IMG/VR virus record: IMGVR_UViG_3300037346_000220
Location: 1 to 64,000 of that record
Strand: one strand, 5' to 3'
Length of the DNA stretch: 64,000 nt
Source: a virus
The notes beneath the pieces were generated by a model. The model was not told where the DNA came from and did not search any database. It was given only the letters and a program-made list of their open reading frames with translations. Below are positions 8,333 through 42,375 of this stretch, piece after piece; position 1 is the stretch's first letter; each line of letters begins with the position of its first letter. The position numbers and the translations under genes were made by a program.

Positions 8333-8551
8333 GTGACTAAGATGATAATTTCATCACTGAAACAAATGGATAGCATAGTAAAGAGCAACAGGAGCCTCGC
8401 CTGGGACGGTTGGGACGTAGTAAAGAGGGTTCCTGCAGCAACTGCATGGAAGTCTCCTAGCGGAGTGTTCGTGAAAAATAGGTGGTACCTTCAGAATAGG
8501 TTCAAGCTTATGGAGAACGGATGGAAGATCCCAGATAAGCTTGTGGGCTAA
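8333..8551 (+). CDS. Hypothetical protein
   Basis: Stop overlaps the whiB start (TAATG). Confidence 0.7.
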   Translation: MTKMIISSLKQMDSIVKSNRSLAWDGWDVVKRVPAATAWKSPSGVFVKNRWYLQNRFKLMENGWKIPDKLVG

Positions 8552-8841
8552 TGGCAGACAAGAACGCATGGAAAGACAGCTCAGCTTGCGAAGCTTATGA
8601 TGTTAACTTATTCTTTGATAAGTATGAAGAGAATGAACAGCTACGTCCAGCAATAGAGAACGTCTGCGCTGCTTGTCCAGTAAGGCGTGAGTGCTTTGCT
8701 AATGGAATATCAAACAAGGAGTATGGAGTTTGGGGAGGTATCTACCTTGAGAAAGGTAAAATATCTAGAGAGTTCGGCAGGCATCGTAATAAAAAAGCTT
8801 GGGCGCAAGTCTGGAAAAAGCTAACGATGGATGGGACATAG
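8551..8841 (+). CDS. whiB: WhiB-family Fe-S transcription factor
   Basis: W...AC....LFF...C..CPVRREC...GVWGG: four Cys plus the GVWGG turn. Confidence 0.95.
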   Translation: MADKNAWKDSSACEAYDVNLFFDKYEENEQLRPAIENVCAACPVRRECFANGISNKEYGVWGGIYLEKGKISREFGRHRNKKAWAQVWKKLTMDGT

Positions 8842-30949: not shown

Positions 30950-32933
30950 GGGGTTTCCTATCTCTTGGGGTTATGTATAAAGTATGACAGGAAAACACCT
31001 ATTTGTCAAGTACTTCTGGGAAAGAAATAACATCATCTTAAAGATATATTTGTGTTTAGCGGTCTATATATAGATGCGGTCGAGCCCCGAAGGGTCCTAC
31101 TAGAGGAAATCAATGAGATCGCCGTCAAAGCCACCTGTCTCCAATTCCATGTTTAGTTCTCGGTAAGAGATCTCACCCTTCTCAGCCATCTCAAATAGCT
31201 CTACCACGTATTCATTTTCCATTGTGTGTCTCCTTCTGTTGGTTATCCAAAGTCTCTAAGCCTTCTGCCATCTCTGTCCCTCCAAGATTTCTTGGTATTG
31301 GTTGAGAGCCATATAGTCCTTACCGCATTTGACAAGGTAGTGTTGGGTAGTGTCAATGCTACCACTCAGGTATTCAAACTCAATGTCCTCCCAAGTTATC
31401 TGGTCTACCTCATCATAGAGAGTATAGAGATGACTAACCATGTAGTCTAGGAACTGGTCAAGATTAGTAAACTCTTTAGTCATAAACCTCAAGGTAGTCT
31501 CCTTACTCTGTCTCTTGCGAATTTTCATCTTGGGTTATACGTCTTTCAACATCTCTGCTAGTTTATCTAGTTGCTCTTTGGTTAGGCTATTCAACACATC
31601 TTCGTTGATTATGCTACCGTCTGTCCAAGCACTCATTTTGCATCCTCTAGCTTTCTTGCTTCGTGGTCATCTGATTTCCAAGTCCAACCTCTAGTTAGCT
31701 TGTCATACGCTTCTACTAGACAGTGGTATTTGGAATGGTCTTCCTCTACCTTCTGAGCAATTAGCTCTGCAATCATAGCAGCCTGTTCCTTACTAAAAAA
31801 GTATCCTGTTTCTGACATTAGCTTCTCCCTAAGTGTAGTAGTTCTTCGTCTGTTAGTTCCTCTAGTCTATCATTACCCTCAGACATTATGCTCTTGCTCT
31901 CCTTCACACTTGTTACAGAATGGTGTGCAATCAAAAGCACCTTCGTGGTTGGGACACTCTATTGTGTTTGTCATAGTTCCTATTATACTGTAGGGGTCAG
32001 ACATTTATTATTTCAACGTTGATAGCGCCTAGCAAGCTAAAAGAATTACCAAGGCCCATAGCCATTATGTCTTCCGCTGTATTCTCCCTGACGTAGTCTA
32101 TCTGGTCCTCTGGAGTAAGCTCGCTAAGAACCTCATCCTCATCCACAAAGTATTCAAAAACAATACTAGCTCTTATAACCTTACTCATAACCCTAGCTCC
32201 TCAATAGCCTGAACAGCCATATGAGTATCCATCATACCCTCAAGGCCCAATTCATCTCTAAGATACTCACAGGTATCGTACACCCCTTGCCAGTATTCAA
32301 GATTCATCTTCATCCTCCAGGGTATCGTTATTAGCTATAACTGGCATACTAAAGAAATTAGTCCAGGTAGTGCCCATAGTTACTTCACTCATCTTCATCC
32401 TCTTCCAATTCTTTTACAGTAATGTCCTCTACCTGACCAGTATACTTATAGTCCTCATAGTCCCAACCCTGTTTCTCTGCTGCCGCATAGTCCTCAGCCT
32501 CTACTTCATAGGTGTAAGATACTTCTACTGTAACTTCATAGTTTGGCATTAGTCTTCCCATTCTGATAGGTCTTCGTGTCCCTTTAGTATAGCAACGGCA
32601 TACGACATTTTATCGCTGTCGGCTAGGGTGTCAAGAACACCCCACTGGTCTTCGGTTAGCTGGTCATAAGAAAAGGTAAGCAGCATGCCACTACCGTAGT
32701 TGCCATCTTCTGAAACGTATGATTCTGGTCTGAGTGCATAGGTCATTGGGGGGTCTCTCTTTCTTTGATAAATCAATACTACCATAGGGGTCAGACATTA
32801 TGCAAGCTACTTTTGGGAGTTTTTTCTAGCTATCTTAATAGGTTATTTATGTTAGTAGATATATTTTAGAATGTCCTGGCGATCGACCACACTCTACCCC
32901 CAGTGTCAAACTGAGGGCAGGCGTGTCGTGAAA

Positions 32934-33929
32934 TTAGGCGTTTGCCAAAACCAACTGAAGCAAACGGTTTTTCTCTGCATTTATCATTGGGTCAAAGCCA
33001 GAAGCGGAAGCCAAGATAGACTCATTGGAACCACCACGAGCTGTGCGATACCAATCCAAACGTTCTGTCATAGCATTGAAAGCACCCCAAGCGGTTCCTG
33101 AAATAGTGTTGTTATAGTCACCCACATAAATCGCTTGGATAAGGTCAACCTTATTTCCATACTTCTTGAATGAACCCTTCTTGTCCTCGCCAACTGGGGC
33201 AGGGTATGCTAGAGCAACAATCTTGTCAAACTTATCCTTAGAGATAGTCTGCTCAATCATCTGCTTAGCCATGATGTCAAATTCATCCATGTATTTGTTA
33301 GCTAGGCCAAGAGCTTCTCTGGCTTGCTGAACCTTGCCAGAAGCGGTTGCTGTATGCCTAATCTTGAAGGACTGCTTAGCCTTACCCTTTAGGGCAACGT
33401 TCAAGGTGTTAGAGCATACAACACGAACTGGAGTAATAGAAGCTTGGATGGCAACTGAACCATCGTGGCTAGTGTTGATTAGTAAATACGTGTTGACTTT
33501 ATCGCCTACACCATTAGGGTCTAACACTGTCTGACGCTCCAAGGCTAGAGAACCGAATACTTGACGGCCACCTTTGATAGAGCCAGCTGTCTCCCAACGT
33601 CCTCCACCATCCAACATTAGGTCTCCAAAGTCAAACAAATCTTCGTTCTGCAATGGAACATAACGCTCACCAACAACGCCTAGAACATCGTTCTGCTCTT
33701 TGTCAAAAGGGTTGGTGCGTGTAACAAAAGAAAAGCTCTTGTCACTTGCAAAGCCTTCAGGAATTGCAACATCTTCTAGACGGACGTTCCAATCTGAAAG
33801 GTGTGCTAGGTCTAGCATTTCCTTAGTTGTAACTTCCTCATCAAATACGGTTCCCAATCCATGCCATGCAGGCTGACGTAGGGATGCGAATGCGGTCTGG
33901 CCATTTACTGTTTCAATTTCGTGCGACAT
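32934..33929 (-). CDS. DUF932 / phage-plasmid-like protein (TIGR03299 type)
   Basis: AWHGLG, LGVVGERY..LQN, ETAGS..GG, NTSHDGS, TPVRVVC.NTL, IRHT, GTAWGAFNA.TE. Confidence 0.88.
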   Translation of the reverse strand: MSHEIETVNGQTAFASLRQPAWHGLGTVFDEEVTTKEMLDLAHLSDWNVRLEDVAIPEGFASDKSFSFVTRTNPFDKEQNDVLGVVGERYVPLQNEDLFDFGDLMLDGGGRWETAGSIKGGRQVFGSLALERQTVLDPNGVGDKVNTYLLINTSHDGSVAIQASITPVRVVCSNTLNVALKGKAKQSFKIRHTATASGKVQQAREALGLANKYMDEFDIMAKQMIEQTISKDKFDKIVALAYPAPVGEDKKGSFKKYGNKVDLIQAIYVGDYNNTISGTAWGAFNAMTERLDWYRTARGGSNESILASASGFDPMINAEKNRLLQLVLANA

Positions 33930-34092
33930 AAGGGGTCTTCTCTCTTTGTTTGATAGTACAACTATACACTAGGGGGCTGACATTATCAAGGTCTTAATGC
34001 ACCTTCTTAAAGGGTTTTATGTAACAGTTAGATAACGAAACGCTCGAGCACAGCGAACCCCCAGGTGTCAACCCAGGGGATCAGCGTGTTGG

Positions 34093-34596
34093 CTATGCTT
34101 TTTCTAAAGTGAACGCCCAAACATAGTCATCGTTGGTTAGTCCTGCCTGTATCTCATCAAAGGTGAGAACGAGGGTAATTCCTTCATAGGTAGAAACAAA
34201 GGTTCTGTTATCTAAATTGAGGGTATAGATACCTTCACACATTAGCTCATCAAACTCAAACTCTAGGTCTAGAACAATAGGCAACATTCCATCACTAGTA
34301 GCAATCACTTCTAGAATGTCTGCGCAAGTGTTTCTTGACATAGTAGGCCAGAGCTTTTCAAACTCTTTATTGTCAAGATTTGCTTTCTCAATCCTAGCAA
34401 TTTCTAACTCCCAGACTGTATCACTCATTGTGTATAGGTTGTCAATGTTATGGGTTAGTAGTTCAATCATCTCAGGGTTACGGATAAAGTTTAGAACGGT
34501 AACGCCCGATCCAGCAGGGTAGCCATCCCATTGTCCATACTGAGAAACTACTGTGTTGCCATCTTTGATTACCTTAGTTATGTTGCGTGTTCCCAT
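34093..34596 (-). CDS. Hypothetical protein (MGTR...QYGQWDGYP family)
   Basis: Recurrent phage early-protein N-terminus. Confidence 0.75.
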   Translation of the reverse strand: MGTRNITKVIKDGNTVVSQYGQWDGYPAGSGVTVLNFIRNPEMIELLTHNIDNLYTMSDTVWELEIARIEKANLDNKEFEKLWPTMSRNTCADILEVIATSDGMLPIVLDLEFEFDELMCEGIYTLNLDNRTFVSTYEGITLVLTFDEIQAGLTNDDYVWAFTLEKA

Positions 34597-34709
34597 TTGG
34601 GATACCTACTTCCTTGGTTATACATACAGACTAGCATTGGGGTCAGACACTTTAGGGTGAGCAGTTTACCTAGACTTGCTCAGGTCATTCTCCCTAAACC
34701 TTTGCAGAT

Positions 34710-35156
34710 TTATAGGAACTCTATCAACGCCCCATAGGTTGAGCCAGATACTTCCTCTTGGGTGGTCATACGCAATACCTTGAGGTTTTTCTCTAGCATC
34801 TCTTTTGGAGAGTAGTGGTCACGACCATACCAAGTTCTGCGGTTAGGCTCTTGTGGCTGTTGTGGCATCTCAGGCAATCCAGCTACCGCACTTGGCTTGA
34901 ACTCAATCTGAATACGATTATCTCCATAGGTAACAACACGAATTGGAGCGTCATACTCATAGCTAATGGTATCTTTATTCAACATAACTTTGCTAATTGC
35001 AACAGCTAGGTCTATGCGATACTGCTCTTTGTCCACCTCATACTTTGCCAAGTCATCTGCATAGCTTTCAACTGATGCGTCAATGCTTGCAATCTTTGCT
35101 TCAATTTCTGCGATTAGGAGAGCTGTTGGAATCTTTACGGAAATACTTCTAGCCAT
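34710..35156 (-). CDS. Hypothetical coiled-coil protein
   Basis: ORF with own promoter. Confidence 0.75.
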   Translation of the reverse strand: MARSISVKIPTALLIAEIEAKIASIDASVESYADDLAKYEVDKEQYRIDLAVAISKVMLNKDTISYEYDAPIRVVTYGDNRIQIEFKPSAVAGLPEMPQQPQEPNRRTWYGRDHYSPKEMLEKNLKVLRMTTQEEVSGSTYGALIEFL

Positions 35157-35223
35157 TATAGGGGGTCTGCTTTCATTAGGGGTTATTTGTTTACTTAGTA
35201 ATTATACAATAGGGGTAGGACAT

Positions 35224-35268
35224 TTTAGGGGGAATAGTGAAAGGATTAGAAACTCTACTCCCCCTAAA
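35224..35268 (-). ncRNA. Hairpin with 17-nt anti-SD loop (copy 1)
   Basis: 14-bp stem (one G-U on - strand), loop AGUUUCUAAUCCUUUCA. Confidence 0.65.
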
Positions 35269-35275
35269 GACTATA

Positions 35276-35428
35276 CTACTTTACAGTAGTCCAGCGAGGC
35301 TGTCCAGATACATCTAGACGAACACGACTTGTGCCGTTCTTGTTCTGAATAACTTCCTGAATTACTCCAGTAACGCCTGACTTAGCTGTGGTGAACTGTG
35401 AGCCAACAGTTAGAGTTGCATTTGACAT
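35276..35428 (-). CDS. Small beta-rich protein (MSNATLTVGSQFTTAKSGVTG...)
   Basis: Start reassigned downstream of the TTGACT-17-TACAAT promoter. Confidence 0.7.
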   Translation of the reverse strand: MSNATLTVGSQFTTAKSGVTGVIQEVIQNKNGTSRVRLDVSGQPRWTTVK

Positions 35429-35880
35429 AATTGCTTCCGTTCTCGCCCCAGAGGGACTATCTTGATTAGTTACCAACGACTTGTTGATAGCTCTATTGTA
35501 GCTGAAATTAGAGTGAAAGTCAAGCCTATTTGGTAACAAAATGATAACAACTTCTAGGCTTTGTCTTCTCTTTTCCAACTACTATAACTATACCTGAGTG
35601 GGATAGGAATTGCAACTCTTAAACCTACAAAGATTTACGAGATTTTTTGTAGGTATCTTAATTGACTTTATAGGATCTGTGCGCTCGGCCACAGAAGAAA
35701 AAAACAGCCAGTTTCTCGTCATGGCCAGGACGTCAGTACCCCTACTGAAGCTTAGTGTTTTCTATTCTCATGAAGTCTAGTTGACGTTGCATATCAACGA
35801 TGCTTTCCTCTAGGCTAACTATCTTATTGCGCATGCTTAGCAATGCTGGGTGTTGACTCTCTGTCCTAATTGGAGTTACC

Positions 35881-36405
35881 TTATTCATGTGAACCTCTCT
35901 TTACTATCCAGATAATTGCTTGGGTTGTTCTAGGTGTTAGGCCATGGATTTTGGCAACTGCCTTTACTGCTTGGCTAAGTGCATGATAGTCACTTTGGCT
36001 AGGTGAGGACTTGGCGTGGTCAACGGCTTTCATCATCCAGACGTCTATCACAACTTGCTCTTGGTCACCTGCAATAGCCTTGGCGAATGCATTAGTCTTT
36101 AGGCCTTTTAGGGCACTAAACCCGTCAGTGAGTGATTTCTCTGCCATACGGATGTTATTCTTTAGGCAGCGGACTTCTTGCCCTAGTGAGAATGCTATGG
36201 CCCTAGCGATGTTCATGGTCCAACGCTCACGAGGTGAGAATGAACTTACAACACTGGCCCCTATCTCTAAGGTGGTCCCTAAGTTTATTGCCACTTTTTC
36301 AGCAATGCGCTCAGCGTCCATATACCAAATTGCTGCCTGCTCAACTTGGCCTAGGGTTGCTTGGGATACAAGCTTGGAGTATTTCTCAATGTAAGTTTCT
36401 AGCAT
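35881..36405 (-). CDS. Conserved phage protein, possible helical DNA-glycosylase-like fold
   Basis: WY..A, SP...W..N, KT.AF, V.IDVW, QA.IW; TTGACA-17-TAAGCT promoter. Confidence 0.6.
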   Translation of the reverse strand: MLETYIEKYSKLVSQATLGQVEQAAIWYMDAERIAEKVAINLGTTLEIGASVVSSFSPRERWTMNIARAIAFSLGQEVRCLKNNIRMAEKSLTDGFSALKGLKTNAFAKAIAGDQEQVVIDVWMMKAVDHAKSSPSQSDYHALSQAVKAVAKIHGLTPRTTQAIIWIVKRGSHE

Positions 36406-36465
36406 TTGGGGTAAGTCTCTCTGTAGGGGTTATAGATTATAGCTTAGCATGTTCTCAGCTGTTTG

Positions 36466-36735
36466 TCAACTATCTTCCGAACACCATGCGCCTAAGTAGT
36501 ATGAACTAATAACATTCCTGGCAGACACCTCGGTATTGCCCCTAAAGCTTACACCTTGCGGCAACGGTATTAGTTTATCTAATTCATCTTCCCAATAAGC
36601 GTCAATAGCTGTTATTGCCGTAGGTATCATCTGACGTGGAATTGGAGGATAGCAATTGCTACTAAAGTGGATAGCTATCTGATTCTCTAGGCTCATGCCT
36701 TGCTCTTGCAATTCTATCGCTGTCATCATTCCCAT
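36466..36735 (-). CDS. Hypothetical protein
   Basis: H.SSN.YPP motif; coupled ORF. Confidence 0.7.
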   Translation of the reverse strand: MGMMTAIELQEQGMSLENQIAIHFSSNCYPPIPRQMIPTAITAIDAYWEDELDKLIPLPQGVSFRGNTEVSARNVISSYYLGAWCSEDS

Positions 36736-36929
36736 TATTTTACCTCCACGTATTCCATAGCAACCCTCAAAAGGTTGTCGTAGTCTCCCGACATACTGGC
36801 AGAAAGATACTCGCTAATTTCTGAAGCGGTTGCTCCAGACTTTTTTAGTGCAGACTTTACCGCTCCCATTACCGCAAAAGCGTTTCCATCACGACCTGTT
36901 AGTTGAACTACTACATCGTATTTTGCCAT
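36735..36929 (-). CDS. Conserved small phage protein (L.G.DGNAF.VMG.V...SGDYDNLL)
   Basis: Recurrent phage motif; GAAAGGA RBS. Confidence 0.8.
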   Translation of the reverse strand: MAKYDVVVQLTGRDGNAFAVMGAVKSALKKSGATASEISEYLSASMSGDYDNLLRVAMEYVEVK

Positions 36930-37589
36930 TTTGTATCCTTTCGGTTATAAAATAATCATACATCAGGGGTCAGACATTTTACCTAGAACTCTAGGTCATA
37001 TTTCAAGAGCACCCTATCAAAAGCATCATCAAGTTTCTGAAGATCCGCCATCAAAGCATCACGCTGTTCTCGATCCATTTCTTTCACTTCACTCATTGGA
37101 AGTGACATTTCCCAAAATTCTTTTCTCATTTTATCTCCTCTAGGGTAAAGTCATACTCATCGCCACCTGCGAGAGCGTGTTCAAACTCATTTTGATTACT
37201 AAAATAAAAGAAGATACCGTCATCATCCTCACCCTCAGTCCACTCGGCATCAATAGCGACGGTAGCTAGGAAACCCTCTCCTGGAGTATCTTTCCATTCA
37301 ACCAATACCCTCTTGTATTCAGTCATCACTCCTGCTTTCTTTGATAGCTTTATAGTTGTTAGACTGCCTTGAACCCTTATACTTATCAACTTGCGCTACT
37401 AGGTGAGGGTTCTTCAGTATGTTGTAAAATAACGCCTGGCTTTCAACCTTGCGCCTTGCCTCGTTGTATCTTCCTAATTTGCTCATAGTGAAACTATAAC
37501 ACAGGGGTCAGACATTTTGGGAAGGAATTTTTCCTATCTTAATTAACTCATCTTAATTAGTTGTCTAATCGTTATAAACGCTCGGGCAG

Positions 37590-37637
37590 AAAAAAATAGC
37601 ACCCAAGGTGAAAGGATTAGAAACTCCCTGGGCACTA
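37590..37637 (-). terminator. Terminator hairpin with the same 17-nt anti-SD loop (copy 2)
   Basis: 12-bp stem with three G-U pairs on - strand, identical loop, U7 tail. Confidence 0.7.
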
Positions 37638-38568
37638 CTTCTTCTGGGTGGCTTGGTTAGATCGTTTCAGGACCTCACCCAATTATTCCCCTAATTAGGA
37701 GGAATAAAACTTGAACGCTTAGTTGAGAAATACTTACGCTTAGCATAGCCAAGAGTGACAAGGACTGCCACAGACACTAGGACTAAGTCTACTAGCAAGT
37801 TGAAACCATTGTAAAAAATCATTAGTTACCTTCTTTCGTTGTGAATAGTTTATCAGGGGTATCAGACAACATTAGCTCTATCTTGAAGATTAGCTCCTCA
37901 AGGGTTTCTGTGCTTAGGCGCTCAGGCATAACCAAGCTCTCTAAGCTCTACGGGAAAGTCTTCACCTAGATAGTCTACAGCGTCTAACACTAGCATTACT
38001 CCGTCATACTCGTTGCAGCCAGAACACACATAGAACTCTACTGTGTCTAGGCAATACACGCACAATTTCATTTCATTCATTACTTATCCTTTCGTTGTTA
38101 TAAGCTTAGCTTAGCACGGGGGTCTGACATTATAGACAGCCCACGTTCACAGTAAATTCTTCAACGCTAAAGGCACACTTTGGGCACAGGGCGTTCACTG
38201 TGTCGTCTATTAGCAATACAGCTTCGGTTGCCTTGGCAAACTTACAAAATCCACAGTTCATTTATCATCCTTTTCGTTATAGGTTTATCTTAGCACAGGG
38301 GTCTGACATTTTAGGTTGCTCTGCCAGAAAGAAGATAGTCAATTTCTTCTTCCCTAGCCAAATCGTTGTTATGTTCCCAAAGCTTGTTGTGAACGGATAG
38401 TGTGTGGCTAGTCTTCCACGCCTTAGCGTCAAGATAGTAGGTGGTGCTTAGTTCCTGAGTAAATCCACAGCCGTTGCAGGTGGTCTTGCGATACATTTTT
38501 GTCATTGATCATCCTTTGCGTTATAGGTATAACCTATCACACATCTGACCCAATAGCAAGTCTATTAG

Positions 38569-38606
38569 GTAACAGTTAGGTAACGTTTATGTAACGTTTA
38601 GGTAAC
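38569..38606 (-). repeat. Four GTTAC direct repeats with 11-bp period upstream of a -35
   Basis: GTAAC on + at 38569, 38580, 38591, 38602. Confidence 0.85.
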
Positions 38607-40211
38607 ATCTATTAGTTTTGGGAATAAACTTTTCCCATCTTAATTTGGGAGATCTTAAATACATTCTTAAGCTTATTTGGGGAATAAATCTATAGTGGGC
38701 GCTCGAAAAAAAATCGGCAAATGTCAAGCGACACGCCGTGGAGAAATAAACTATTTAGTTTATCTCGCCATACGCCTCGTAGCAATTTACGCAAGCGGTT
38801 TCACCTTCAACCTCTACAGTTGGAACGGTGTTTGAACATATTTCGCAAAATTTGAAATCAATCATCTTTTACATCCTTTCTATTTATTTCTTTATCTTTA
38901 TTTATACTAGTAGTCTATACCCTACACCCCCAAAAGTCAAGACGACACGCCGTGTTTGGCGAAAGTTCTTTATAACAAAACAGTAACGGTTATAGGCTAC
39001 CTAGACGGCTGGCAAAGTCTTCGTTCCAGATCCAGTTCCAGGTATAGCCTAGTGATGCAACCCTAATCAATAGGTAGGCGATGTAAGCTGTGCCTGCTAG
39101 GCAAATGGCGTATACGCTAATTCTTTTTGACTTTGTCATTTCTTTATCCTTTGTTTGTATATCTATAGCATAGTGCATAGGTGAGACATTATCAATACGA
39201 CACGCCGAAGAATAGAAAAAAAATACCCCTATTGTTCTGGGGTATTCATTTCGGTAACAACACTAGCAATTCCAGCAATAGCGTTGTCATAGTCCTCCCA
39301 AGTATCAAAAGTGAGCGTTATCATTATGTTACCAACCTCTCGTTGAACCCAGAGCGTTAGCCATTACCATTAGACCGTTGATGTATTTGATTTCACTATC
39401 ACTAGGGGTATCACCTACGATAGACACTAGTGTTTCTATCTCTACCTCTATCTCTGATAGTGAGAGGGTATCCAATTCTTTGAATCTATTCATTATTATC
39501 CTTTACTGTTTATACTATGATACTAACACTAGGGTCAGACACTTTAGAATGTCTTGCTAAGCTGTAAGTCTATCCACCTAAGCCAAGTTGCACCTACTGG
39601 CTTATTGCCAGACTTGATGCCCTGTAGCACTGTTGAGTAAAACATTTTTTCTTCTTTATTCATTCTTGATTTCTTCATAGTTCTACCTTACCATAGGGGT
39701 CTGACATTTTAGATGGACTCATTACCAGTTACCATTAGGATGGTGTAGCCCATCCCCTCAAGCTTAGCGATAGCGTTATCAACATTGGCTGGCATTGAAC
39801 CAAACCAAACCATTGAGTCATTGTCCTTGCTTACGAAAATCTTCTTCATTTCTCTATCCTTTATCTTTCTTTGTATAGTTACACTCTACAGGATAGACAT
39901 TCAAAAGTCAACACGACACGCCGATGATTGGAAAACTTTTCTCATAAGGGTGGCACCAGTGTGCTCACTAATTATGCTTGCTTATTCACCCAGATCGTGT
40001 ATCGTACATAACTATAAAATATTCAGATATTGCTAAAAATAGATTTTTTCAGATTTAGGCGGTATACCAATATCCATCATATCTCTGATCTCCAGGGTAT
40101 CTATAACATACACAATATCCCATAGTAGATATAATCTTAATGTCTAGTAAGGATATCCTAAGTATAAACAATATATGGTGCTATCCTTATAGTAAAGAAG
40201 GAGGGGAATAC

Positions 40212-40962: not shown

Positions 40963-41853
40963 CTAAGCGAAGAACTCATCGCCGAACTTAGCTATCGCCT
41001 CTTGGTGGAAAGCATCAGCGTATGACATATGATCTAAAATGCCAGGGTGCGCATCGGCGCCTATTCCATCCGCAGCGAATAACCAGAACTCTTCCTGCCC
41101 AGGCTCTGGGTCCTCAAACTTGTCGCCAAAATAGGCCTCTCCGTATTTTTTCCTGTATGAAAAGTAGCTGTTTAAGCGTTTGGTTTTATTTAGCTCATGT
41201 TCAAATCCTGGATCCCAAGTAGTATACATTAGTGGCACACCGACGGCTTCGAGGTACATCTCAAGCTGTTTGGCTTCGTTCATAAAATCACTCATTAAGT
41301 TCTTGTTCGTAATAACAGAGTTTACGATGTCTAATTCTTCTTGGTTCTCTAGTGGCTGTTCTGTTGAGGGCACAAATACCTCTAAACTGTATGGAGCAGT
41401 CGTCAATCTACCGTTATCAATGTCTATAGAATAATACCTGCTTACATTTGGTAACAAAAGCATAACAATTTTAGGTTTACCGTAACGATTAATGTATTTG
41501 TACACATCTTGGAAGATTCTAGAACAAGAATTTCCTGGTGCGGAAACATCAGCAAGATATTTTGCAGACAGCTTATCCTTTAACAGAGTAGACCACCTAA
41601 CATTTTCTTCCAGTCCCAATCCAAAAGTAACAGAACACCCACCAACGTAAATTGTATCCTTAGAAACTAAATTGTCAAAGTCCTCAGATCGGTATCCTTG
41701 CTTGTTAACAAAATATTCTATTGTTGCTCTAGAATGCTCAACGATATGCGAATCTCTTATCTGTCCGCCAACAGAATGAATGGGGAAGGGTATATCGAGA
41801 TAAATATCAAGCGAGTGACCCTTGTGTTTACCGTGTTTTTCCCTATGTAACAT
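40963..41853 (-). CDS. SGNH-hydrolase-like protein
   Basis: GGCSVTFGLG, PGNS, DAHPG; paralog of 2218-3132. Confidence 0.55.
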   Translation of the reverse strand: MLHREKHGKHKGHSLDIYLDIPFPIHSVGGQIRDSHIVEHSRATIEYFVNKQGYRSEDFDNLVSKDTIYVGGCSVTFGLGLEENVRWSTLLKDKLSAKYLADVSAPGNSCSRIFQDVYKYINRYGKPKIVMLLLPNVSRYYSIDIDNGRLTTAPYSLEVFVPSTEQPLENQEELDIVNSVITNKNLMSDFMNEAKQLEMYLEAVGVPLMYTTWDPGFEHELNKTKRLNSYFSYRKKYGEAYFGDKFEDPEPGQEEFWLFAADGIGADAHPGILDHMSYADAFHQEAIAKFGDEFFA

Positions 41854-42176: not shown

Positions 42177-42375
42177 ATAATTATATATAACTACTATATA
42201 ATATAGAACCTAATAAGTAATAAAACCTAACTAGCTATATTAGAACCTAATTAATAATAAATATATGGTAGCACAGATTTTGATCTTGTCAACACTTATT
42301 TTGATAACAATATTATAACTATTAGATAACAGACTTATAACAAGCCTTCTATTACTTGATGTGATATACTTTAAT

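What the first reader, a model, noticed from the sequence alone, without database searches (positions are those of the whole stretch)
31864..39706. Early genes wired to 14 PafBC/RecA-NDp-type DNA-damage promoters: a phage regulon possibly run by the host sigma-adaptation system
Seen: 14 intergenic - strand sites with invariant geometry TGTCnn-N10-TAnnnT: TGTCTG x8, TGTCAG x4, TGTCCT and TGTCTC once each, mostly continuing ACCCC (e.g. TGTCTGACCCCTACAGTATAAT at 32003-31982, TGTCAGACCCCTGTGCTAAGAT at 38308-38287). Most lack a recognisable -35, and I noticed none outside this region. Established: the LexA-independent actinobacterial damage promoter is tTGTC(G/A)g...TAnnnT / TGTCGG-N10-TANNNT, read as a -26 element when the WYL-domain activator PafBC, triggered by single-stranded nucleic acid, adapts sigma-A RNAP. 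Inference: the phage makes a second wave of early genes (DUF932 and many unknowns) conditional on PafBC activation, using injected/replicating DNA or host nuclease attack as the trigger, or encodes its own mimic activator outside this window. I know of no description of a lytic phage regulon built this way.
Basis: partly seen in the sequence, partly recalled or inferred. Interest (0 to 1): 0.92.

Follow-up and report, generated by a model that had tools for sequence, protein, structure and literature searches.

The report
Phage promoters copying host PafBC boxes
An uncultured phage of actinobacteria drives a block of small genes from at least eleven promoters built like the promoters its hosts use for their DNA-damage alarm (PafBC), so the phage probably borrows that host alarm to switch these genes on; no experiment has tested this.

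Summary
Eleven strong sites, plus two degenerate ones, read TGTC(W)GACCCC-N5-TAnnnT. All lie on the minus strand at 31982-39706, and there are none elsewhere in the 111-kb genome.

The hexamer TGTCnG sits at -28..-23, which is the published position of the PafBC -26 element, tGTCgg(N10)tA(N3)T. The phage is an actinophage: it encodes WhiB, and its DnaE and capsid proteins are closest to Streptomyces Stanwilliamsviridae.

In 79 uncultured relatives the same box occurs 691 times on the gene strand at spacing N10. It occurs 9 times at N9 and 13 times at N11. Complete genomes carry 10-16 sites in one block.

32 of 35 sampled actinomycete genomes have this motif upstream of recA. The preferred continuations are the same as in the phages: TGG and ACC.

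The phage has no WYL, PafC-HTH, HTH_11 or sigma-r4 match. Streamlined 1.4-1.5 Mb actinomycetes keep pafBC.

Cautions:
- The host is unknown and there is no expression data.
- 7 of the 11 sites also carry an extended -10, so strict PafBC dependence is not shown.
- I found no paper describing this.

I read the block as PafBC-type promoters used by a lytic phage, with confidence 0.6.

The parts
39685..39706 (-). PafBC-type promoter TGTCAGACCCCTATGGTAAGGT. The ATG follows 6 nt after the -10, so the 44-aa gene is leaderless.
39520..39541 (-). PafBC-type promoter TGTCTGACCCTAGTGTTAGTAT, followed by a 54-aa gene.
38287..38308 (-). PafBC-type promoter TGTCAGACCCCTGTGCTAAGAT, followed by a 43-aa gene.
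38108..38129 (-). PafBC-type promoter TGTCAGACCCCCGTGCTAAGCT, followed by a 52-aa gene.
37493..37514 (-). PafBC-type promoter TGTCTGACCCCTGTGTTATAGT. Its 55-aa gene is leaderless and two more small genes follow.
36955..36976 (-). PafBC-type promoter TGTCTGACCCCTGATGTATGAT with no TGn and no -35. Its operon includes the phrog_1933 gene and DUF7178 (35881-36405).
35201..35222 (-). PafBC-type promoter TGTCCTACCCCTATTGTATAAT with no TGn and no -35, followed by a 148-aa gene.
34628..34649 (-). PafBC-type promoter TGTCTGACCCCAATGCTAGTCT, followed by a 167-aa gene (phrog_1987).
33961..33982 (-). Composite promoter: TTGATA -35 plus the box TGTCAGCCCCCTAGTGTATAGT. It precedes the DUF932 gene (32934-33929). 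The position is conserved in 63 of 79 relatives.
32776..32797 (-). PafBC-type promoter TGTCTGACCCCTATGGTAGTAT, followed by four small genes.
31982..32003 (-). PafBC-type promoter TGTCTGACCCCTACAGTATAAT. The ATG follows 7 nt after the -10, giving a leaderless 31-aa Cys-rich ORF.
39167..39188 (-). Degenerate box TGTCTCACC behind a TTGATA -35. Probably an ordinary sigma-A promoter.
37847..37868 (-). Degenerate box TGTCTGATACCCC, in which ACCCC is shifted by 2 nt.
31864..31885 (-). Probably not a promoter.
41651..41678 (-). Canonical TTGACA-16-TACAAT promoter at the head of the leftward block. Others of this kind end at 42292, 40218, 32634, 30468 and 29261.
8551..8841 (+). WhiB-family gene, which marks the phage as an actinophage.

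Best explanation
The leftward block of about 30 small genes (roughly 31.6-39.7 kb) is cut into at least 11 short transcription units. Each unit starts at a promoter made of a sigma-A -10 (TAnnnT, often preceded by TGn) and a TGTCnG box at -28..-23, usually without a -35.

This is the architecture of the actinobacterial PafBC (RecA-NDp) DNA-damage promoter. In that class, PafB reads the GTC triplet and PafBC bridges to sigma-A domain 4 ('sigma adaptation').

The most likely mechanism is that the host's own PafBC recruits RNAP-sigma-A to these phage promoters once single-stranded DNA made during infection has activated it. The phage would then need no activator of its own.

Shown here: the sequence architecture, its conservation, and its identity with host recA promoters. 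Inferred: PafBC binding, the single-stranded DNA trigger, and early timing.
For: 1. The published PafBC motif is tGTCgg(N10)tA(N3)T, with the box at -23..-28, no -35, and a GTC triplet conserved across actinobacteria. The phage sites are TGTCnG-N10-TAnnnT.
2. Three sites place an ATG 6-7 nt after TAnnnT. This is the geometry of leaderless mRNAs and supports TAnnnT as a true -10.
3. The spacing is rigid. In 79 relatives N10 gives 691 gene-strand sites against 39 on the other strand, N9 gives 9, and N11 gives 13. Five complete relatives carry 10-16 sites each, in one block on one strand.
4. Host side: 32 of 35 sampled actinomycete genomes have one such motif upstream of recA. G at position 6 occurs in 30 of 31 unique sites. 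Positions 7-9 are most often TGG (11) or ACC (6). In 495 unique phage sites the top two are also TGG (148) and ACC (132).
5. In 1.4-1.5 Mb actinomycete genomes the box precedes recA, radA, a LysM gene, DUF6504 and CarD. In a MAG labelled Aquiluna it precedes RmuC and an exonuclease.
6. Those genomes keep pafB-pafC-tatC.
7. The phage has WhiB but no match to WYL, HTH_PafC, HTH_11 or sigma region 4.
8. Upstream of the orthologous DUF932 gene, 63 of 79 relatives keep the box. Some others have a plain TTGACA -35 promoter instead, so the box and the -35 are interchangeable there.
Against: - The host is unknown, so its pafBC cannot be checked.
- There is no RNA evidence.
- Phage sites differ from host recA sites at weakly conserved positions. 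Position 5 is mostly A or T, against G in hosts. Position -1 is mostly A, against T or C in hosts.
- 7 of the 11 sites here and 57% of sites in relatives carry TGn. About 20% of relatives' sites carry a -35 matching at least 5 of 6 bases. Only 1 of 31 host recA sites has TGn and none has a -35. Basal activity without PafBC is therefore plausible.
- The cultured relative Streptomyces phage Muntaha lacks the motif, with 6 and 3 chance-level sites.
Confidence: 0.6

Rival explanations
1. A phage-encoded activator of unrecognised fold, working in the manner of T4 MotA/AsiA, or a host factor other than PafBC, reads the TGTCnG box and recruits sigma-A RNAP.
For: Most genes in the block and elsewhere have no family. 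Preferences at positions 5 and -1 differ from host recA sites. The motif is missing from the cultured relative Muntaha, so it could have arisen together with a lineage-specific factor.
Against: The phage has no match to WYL, HTH_PafC, HTH_11 or sigma region 4. The 296-aa gene at the head of the block looks like an SGNH hydrolase, not a DNA binder. A new factor would have to copy by convergence the box, its exact N10 spacing and the TGG/ACC continuations of host PafBC promoters.
Confidence: 0.15
2. The promoters are constitutive extended -10 or -35 sigma-A promoters. The box serves a negative or decoy role: either an operator for shutting off early genes, or a sink that draws PafBC away from host repair and defence genes as the phage DNA is copied.
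For: TGn is present in 7 of 11 sites here and 57% in relatives, and a -35 in about 20%. The phage carries as many boxes in 8 kb as a whole 1.5-Mb actinomycete genome (14).
Against: Three sites (32003, 35222, 36976) have neither TGn nor a -35 and would be weak without an activator. Spacing to the -10 is fixed to the base, which is not expected for a free operator. The box alternates with a -35 at the orthologous DUF932 promoter. No repressor or integrase was found.
Confidence: 0.15
3. The sites are copies of one duplicated promoter cassette, and the box has no regulatory meaning.
For: 9 of the 11 sites share the long word GACCCC(T).
Against: In relatives the bases between the box and the -10 have drifted freely, while TGTCnG, the spacing and TAnnnT are kept, including at orthologous positions.
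Confidence: 0.05

Closest known systems
PafBC-dependent (RecA-NDp) promoters of Actinobacteria, read by 'sigma adaptation' (PMC8635444, PMC8223512)
   Same: TGTCnG box at -28..-23. Exactly 10 nt to a sigma-A TAnnnT -10. Usually no -35. The same preferred continuations, TGG and ACC.
   Different: The sites are on a lytic-type phage, 11-16 per genome in one block, ahead of small genes of unknown function rather than repair genes. They are often reinforced by TGn. Position 5 is A or T rather than G. PafBC dependence is untested.
T4 middle promoters (MotA box at -30 plus sigma-70 -10; sigma appropriation by AsiA/MotA)
   Same: A phage regulon whose promoters replace the -35 with an activator box while keeping the host -10.
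   Different: T4 encodes its own activator and co-activator and remodels sigma region 4. Here no phage activator was found and the box is the host's own.
Phage genes under host LexA/SOS boxes
   Same: A phage wires its genes to the host's DNA-damage sensing.
   Different: LexA is a repressor and is used mostly by temperate phages. PafBC is an activator triggered by single-stranded DNA, and this phage shows no tyrosine integrase.
[quoted passage not shown]
   Same: Many short asymmetric repeats, in one orientation, in intergenic gaps of an actinophage.
   Different: Stoperators bind a phage repressor, are spread over the genome, and have no fixed distance to a -10. Here the sites lie in one block at base-exact promoter geometry.

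Membership tests
PafBC-dependent (RecA-NDp) promoter class | Box tGTCgg with an invariant GTC triplet at about -26 | tested here: met
   TGTC is present in all 14 sites (it is fixed by the search pattern) and unchanged in all 11 PWM-defined core sites. G at position 6 occurs in 12 of 14. Position 5 is T or A rather than g, but that position is at most 50% conserved in the published motif.
PafBC-dependent (RecA-NDp) promoter class | Fixed 10-nt gap between the hexamer and a sigma-A TAnnnT -10 | tested here: met
   All sites have N10. In relatives N10 gives 691 sites, against 9 for N9 and 13 for N11.
PafBC-dependent (RecA-NDp) promoter class | No -35 element | tested here: inconclusive
   At least 8 of the 11 core sites lack a -35; 33982 and 32797 have TTGATA and TTGCAT (the third -35-like site, 39188, is a degenerate site outside the core 11). 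About 20% of relatives' sites have a -35 matching at least 5 of 6 bases, and 57% have TGn. Host recA sites have 0 and 1 of 31 respectively.
PafBC-dependent (RecA-NDp) promoter class | The host encodes PafB and PafC | tested here: inconclusive
   The host is unknown. All six small-genome actinomycetes checked have tandem WYL genes; the two annotated with Pfam (G035, G001) are pafB-pafC followed by tatC.
PafBC-dependent (RecA-NDp) promoter class | PafBC binding and transcription induced by single-stranded DNA or damage | not testable with these tools
   Needs reporters, in vitro transcription or pull-downs.
MotA-type phage middle promoters | Phage-encoded activator and sigma-remodelling co-activator | tested here: not met
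   No match to WYL, HTH_PafC, HTH_11 or sigma region 4 in the 111-kb genome. Factors of unknown fold cannot be excluded.
Stoperator or repressor-operator arrays | Sites spread over the genome, with no fixed register to a -10, plus a phage repressor and integrase | tested here: not met
   All sites lie in one 8-kb block at fixed register. No tyrosine integrase was found.

The most novel reading that the evidence does not exclude
A whole family of large uncultured actinophages (141 relatives matched, 80 examined) runs a block of 10-16 operons through the host's single-stranded-DNA-sensing activator PafBC by sigma adaptation. The host's DNA-damage and anti-phage alarm would then serve as the phage's own 'I am inside' signal, with no phage-encoded transcription factor. 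This would be the first viral use of sigma adaptation.
Probability: 0.5. Interest if true: 0.85.

Novelty: new variant of a known kind. Interest (0 to 1): 0.8.

Why it matters
PafBC is the master activator of the actinobacterial DNA-damage response. It is switched on by single-stranded DNA, and a recent paper that I could not read links it to phage resistance.

A phage regulon built from PafBC promoters would mean that the host cannot raise this alarm without also turning on phage genes. That is a different logic from T4-style sigma appropriation and from LexA-controlled prophages.

It would also give a compact natural set of PafBC promoters, with a refined consensus of TGTC-n-G-W-S-S. It would point to about 30 small phage genes likely to act at the moment DNA ends or single-stranded DNA appear. 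It can be tested in M. smegmatis or C. glutamicum even though the natural host is uncultured.

Tried and rejected
- Near-identity DNA search against cultured phages found no match.
- A host search with the phage WhiB alone in genome contigs found nothing. With a two-sequence alignment it gave 5 MAG contigs, which look like mis-binned phage contigs. They served only as entry points to actinobacterial genomes, not as host evidence.
- The ribonucleotide reductase is only 24% identical to that of phage Muntaha, so it was not useful for host finding.
- Epimerase homologues are about 43% identical to bacterial ones and gave no host signal.
- Sequencing runs: 24 'salt lake metagenome' DNA holders and no RNA holder listed. 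I did not lay reads.
- Rfam found nothing in 27-43 kb.
- Atlas and PDB look-ups for the DUF932 gene, the 167-aa gene and the 296-aa gene gave no function beyond a weak SGNH/GDSL lead for the last.
- A paper on PafBC and mycobacteriophage resistance (PubMed id 41134923) is not held.
- I considered and dropped the idea that the upstream TAAAA is part of the recognition site, because it is often the preceding stop codon.
- I did not use structure or complex prediction, because no protein-protein claim is made.
Full report
**Observation.** The pattern TGTC-N12-TAnnnT has 20 matches in the window against 11.5 expected. Fifteen of them lie on the minus strand between 31864 and 39706. The longer word TGTCWGACCCC occurs 8 times, all in this stretch and on this strand. 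It occurs nowhere else in the whole 111,267-bp virus record. A matrix built from the 11 best sites finds only those 11 genome-wide, and the motif's words are the most repeated 11-mers in the genome.

The sites are followed either by a 24-31 nt leader with an AAAGGA ribosome site and an ATG, or, in three cases, by an ATG only 6-7 nt after TAnnnT. The second arrangement is what a leaderless mRNA needs, and it supports TAnnnT as a real -10. Site 31885 sits on a stop/start overlap of tiny ORFs and should be dropped. Sites 37868 and 39188 are degenerate. The conserved TAA(A) before TGTC is often the stop codon of the preceding gene.

**What the phage is.** It is a siphovirus with a 2279-aa tape measure protein, a portal, a protease and a DnaE-type polymerase. 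Its polymerase (55% identity) and capsid protein (44% identity) are closest to Streptomyces phages of the Stanwilliamsviridae. It encodes a WhiB protein. It is therefore an actinophage despite 43% G+C. Its cultured relative Streptomyces phage Muntaha is itself only 53% G+C. No tyrosine integrase was found. The 127-bp 'terminal repeat' looks like an assembly overlap, so the physical ends of the genome are unknown. Public runs that hold the sequence are labelled salt lake metagenomes.

**Comparison with the known promoter class.** The PafBC motif determined by ChIP-seq and cryo-EM is tGTCgg(N10)tA(N3)T. The box lies at -23..-28, there is no -35, and PafB reads a GTC triplet that is conserved across actinobacteria (PMC8635444, PMC8223512). 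With TAnnnT at -12..-7, the phage hexamer TGTCnG falls at -28..-23.

**Relatives.** The DUF932 gene matched 141 relatives in IMG/VR, of which the best 80 loci were kept. In 79 of these loci, TGTCnG-N10-TAnnnT occurs 691 times on the gene strand and 39 times on the other strand. A gap of N9 gives 9 sites and N11 gives 13. Single genomes mix continuations such as ACC, TGG, TAG and TCC, and position 5 varies by lineage. Five complete relatives carry 10-16 sites each, on one strand in one block. Upstream of the orthologous DUF932 gene, 63 of 79 relatives keep the motif 26-43 nt before the start. Several of the remaining relatives have the box with a -10 that deviates from TAnnnT, often next to a TTGACA -35, and some have a plain TTGACA promoter with no box. 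The box therefore behaves as a positive promoter element that can stand in for a -35. Streptomyces phage Muntaha lacks the motif.

**Host side.** Through a MAG labelled 'uncultured Aquiluna sp.' I reached a sample of 100 genomes of its class. In 32 of 35 recA loci there is one TGTC-N12-TAnnnT upstream of recA. One of these loci, L151, comes from the unpublished genome G039. Without it the count is 31 of 34. Position 6 is G in 30 of 31 unique sites. Positions 7-9 are most often TGG (11) or ACC (6). Among 495 unique phage sites the two commonest are also TGG (148) and ACC (132).

Read together, both sets fit TGTC-n-G-W-S-S. About 73% of phage sites fit it, where base composition alone would give about 10%. 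The ACCCC of this phage is thus a natural flavour of host recA promoters.

All six small genomes checked (the 1.9-Mb Aquiluna-labelled MAG, four of 1.4-1.5 Mb and one of 2.4 Mb) have tandem WYL genes. The two I annotated are PafB (WYL plus WCX) and PafC (HTH_PafC plus WYL) followed by tatC. In these genomes the box precedes recA, radA, a LysM gene (in two genomes), DUF6504, CarD, RmuC and an exonuclease. A whole 1.5-Mb genome has only 14 pattern matches. The phage packs as many into 8 kb.

**Is there a phage-encoded reader?** Searches of the whole phage genome for WYL, HTH_PafC, HTH_11 and sigma region 4 found nothing significant. The 296-aa gene at the head of the block looks like an SGNH hydrolase. 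The regulated genes are DUF932, DUF7178, two PHROGs of unknown function, and many orphans.

**Reservations.**
- The host is unknown and there is no RNA evidence.
- Phage sites prefer A or T at position 5 and A at -1, where host recA sites prefer G and T or C.
- 7 of the 11 sites here, and 57% of sites in relatives, have an extended -10 (TGn). About 20% of relatives' sites have a good -35. Host recA sites almost never have either.
- Some activity without PafBC is therefore plausible. The box could also serve to boost transcription, to shut it off, or to titrate PafBC.
- Three sites (32003, 35222, 36976) have only the box and the -10.

**Literature.** Searches on PafBC with phage, prophage, actinobacteriophage and sigma adaptation found no description of phage promoters of this class. 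One paper links PafBC to mycobacteriophage resistance but is not held.

**Verdict.** The assignment to the PafBC promoter class is well supported by sequence. Dependence on host PafBC is the most economical mechanism (confidence 0.6) but is untested.

Noticed in passing
host recA loci L131-L164 and phage loci L016-L094: Positions 7-9 after TGTCnG are mostly TGG or its base-by-base complement ACC, in both hosts and phages. The overall pattern is W-S-S. This might reflect a readout that cannot tell A:T from T:A or G:C from C:G, for example through the minor groove or DNA shape.
   Followed up: partly
window 38729-38755, 39198-39224, 39914-39940 (minus strand reads CGGCGTGTCGTrTTGA): A second repeated element, CGGCGTGTCGT, abuts the -35 of three canonical minus-strand promoters whose -35 hexamers begin at 38940, 39195 and 39911 (minus-strand coordinates). 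It contains GTGTC, the complement of the GACAC motif that I recall for WhiA. That link is from memory and untested.
   Followed up: no
window 32811-32839, 35634-35662, 37515-37543, 38616-38644: Four copies of an ATTAAGA-hairpin-CCCAAAA element, two of them directly upstream of box promoters. They may be terminators without a U-tract.
   Followed up: no
window 30412, 32756, 33938, 35168 (minus strand): AGACCCC also sits between the ribosome binding site and the ATG of four genes in the leftward block.
   Followed up: no
window 35237-35255 and 37608-37626: An exact 19-nt repeat, GTGAAAGGATTAGAAACTC (plus-strand reading). It is probably the loop element noted by another first-stage reader.
   Followed up: no
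window 40963-41853 (minus strand): A 296-aa gene behind the canonical promoters at the head of the block. It has GxSxxxG and DxxH motifs and a weak Atlas lead to GDSL/SGNH hydrolases.
   Followed up: partly
L102-L106 (MAG contigs labelled Methylococcus, Bifidobacterium, Beijerinckiaceae, Aquiluna, Bacteroidia): Contigs of 5.6-85 kb carrying a close WhiB homologue sit in MAGs of unrelated phyla. G002:C1 has about 20 TGTCNGTGG-N7-TATAAT promoters. These look like phage contigs mis-binned into MAGs.
   Followed up: partly
genome ends (1-127 and 111141-111267): The 'direct terminal repeat' is exactly 127 bp, the size of an assembly k-mer overlap. The true genome ends and the order of DNA entry are therefore unknown.
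   Followed up: yes
G035 and G088 (L175, L184): In streamlined actinomycete genomes the PafBC-type box also precedes a SocA/Panacea antitoxin gene and a C5 DNA methylase gene. This hints that defence-type genes belong to the host regulon.
   Followed up: partly
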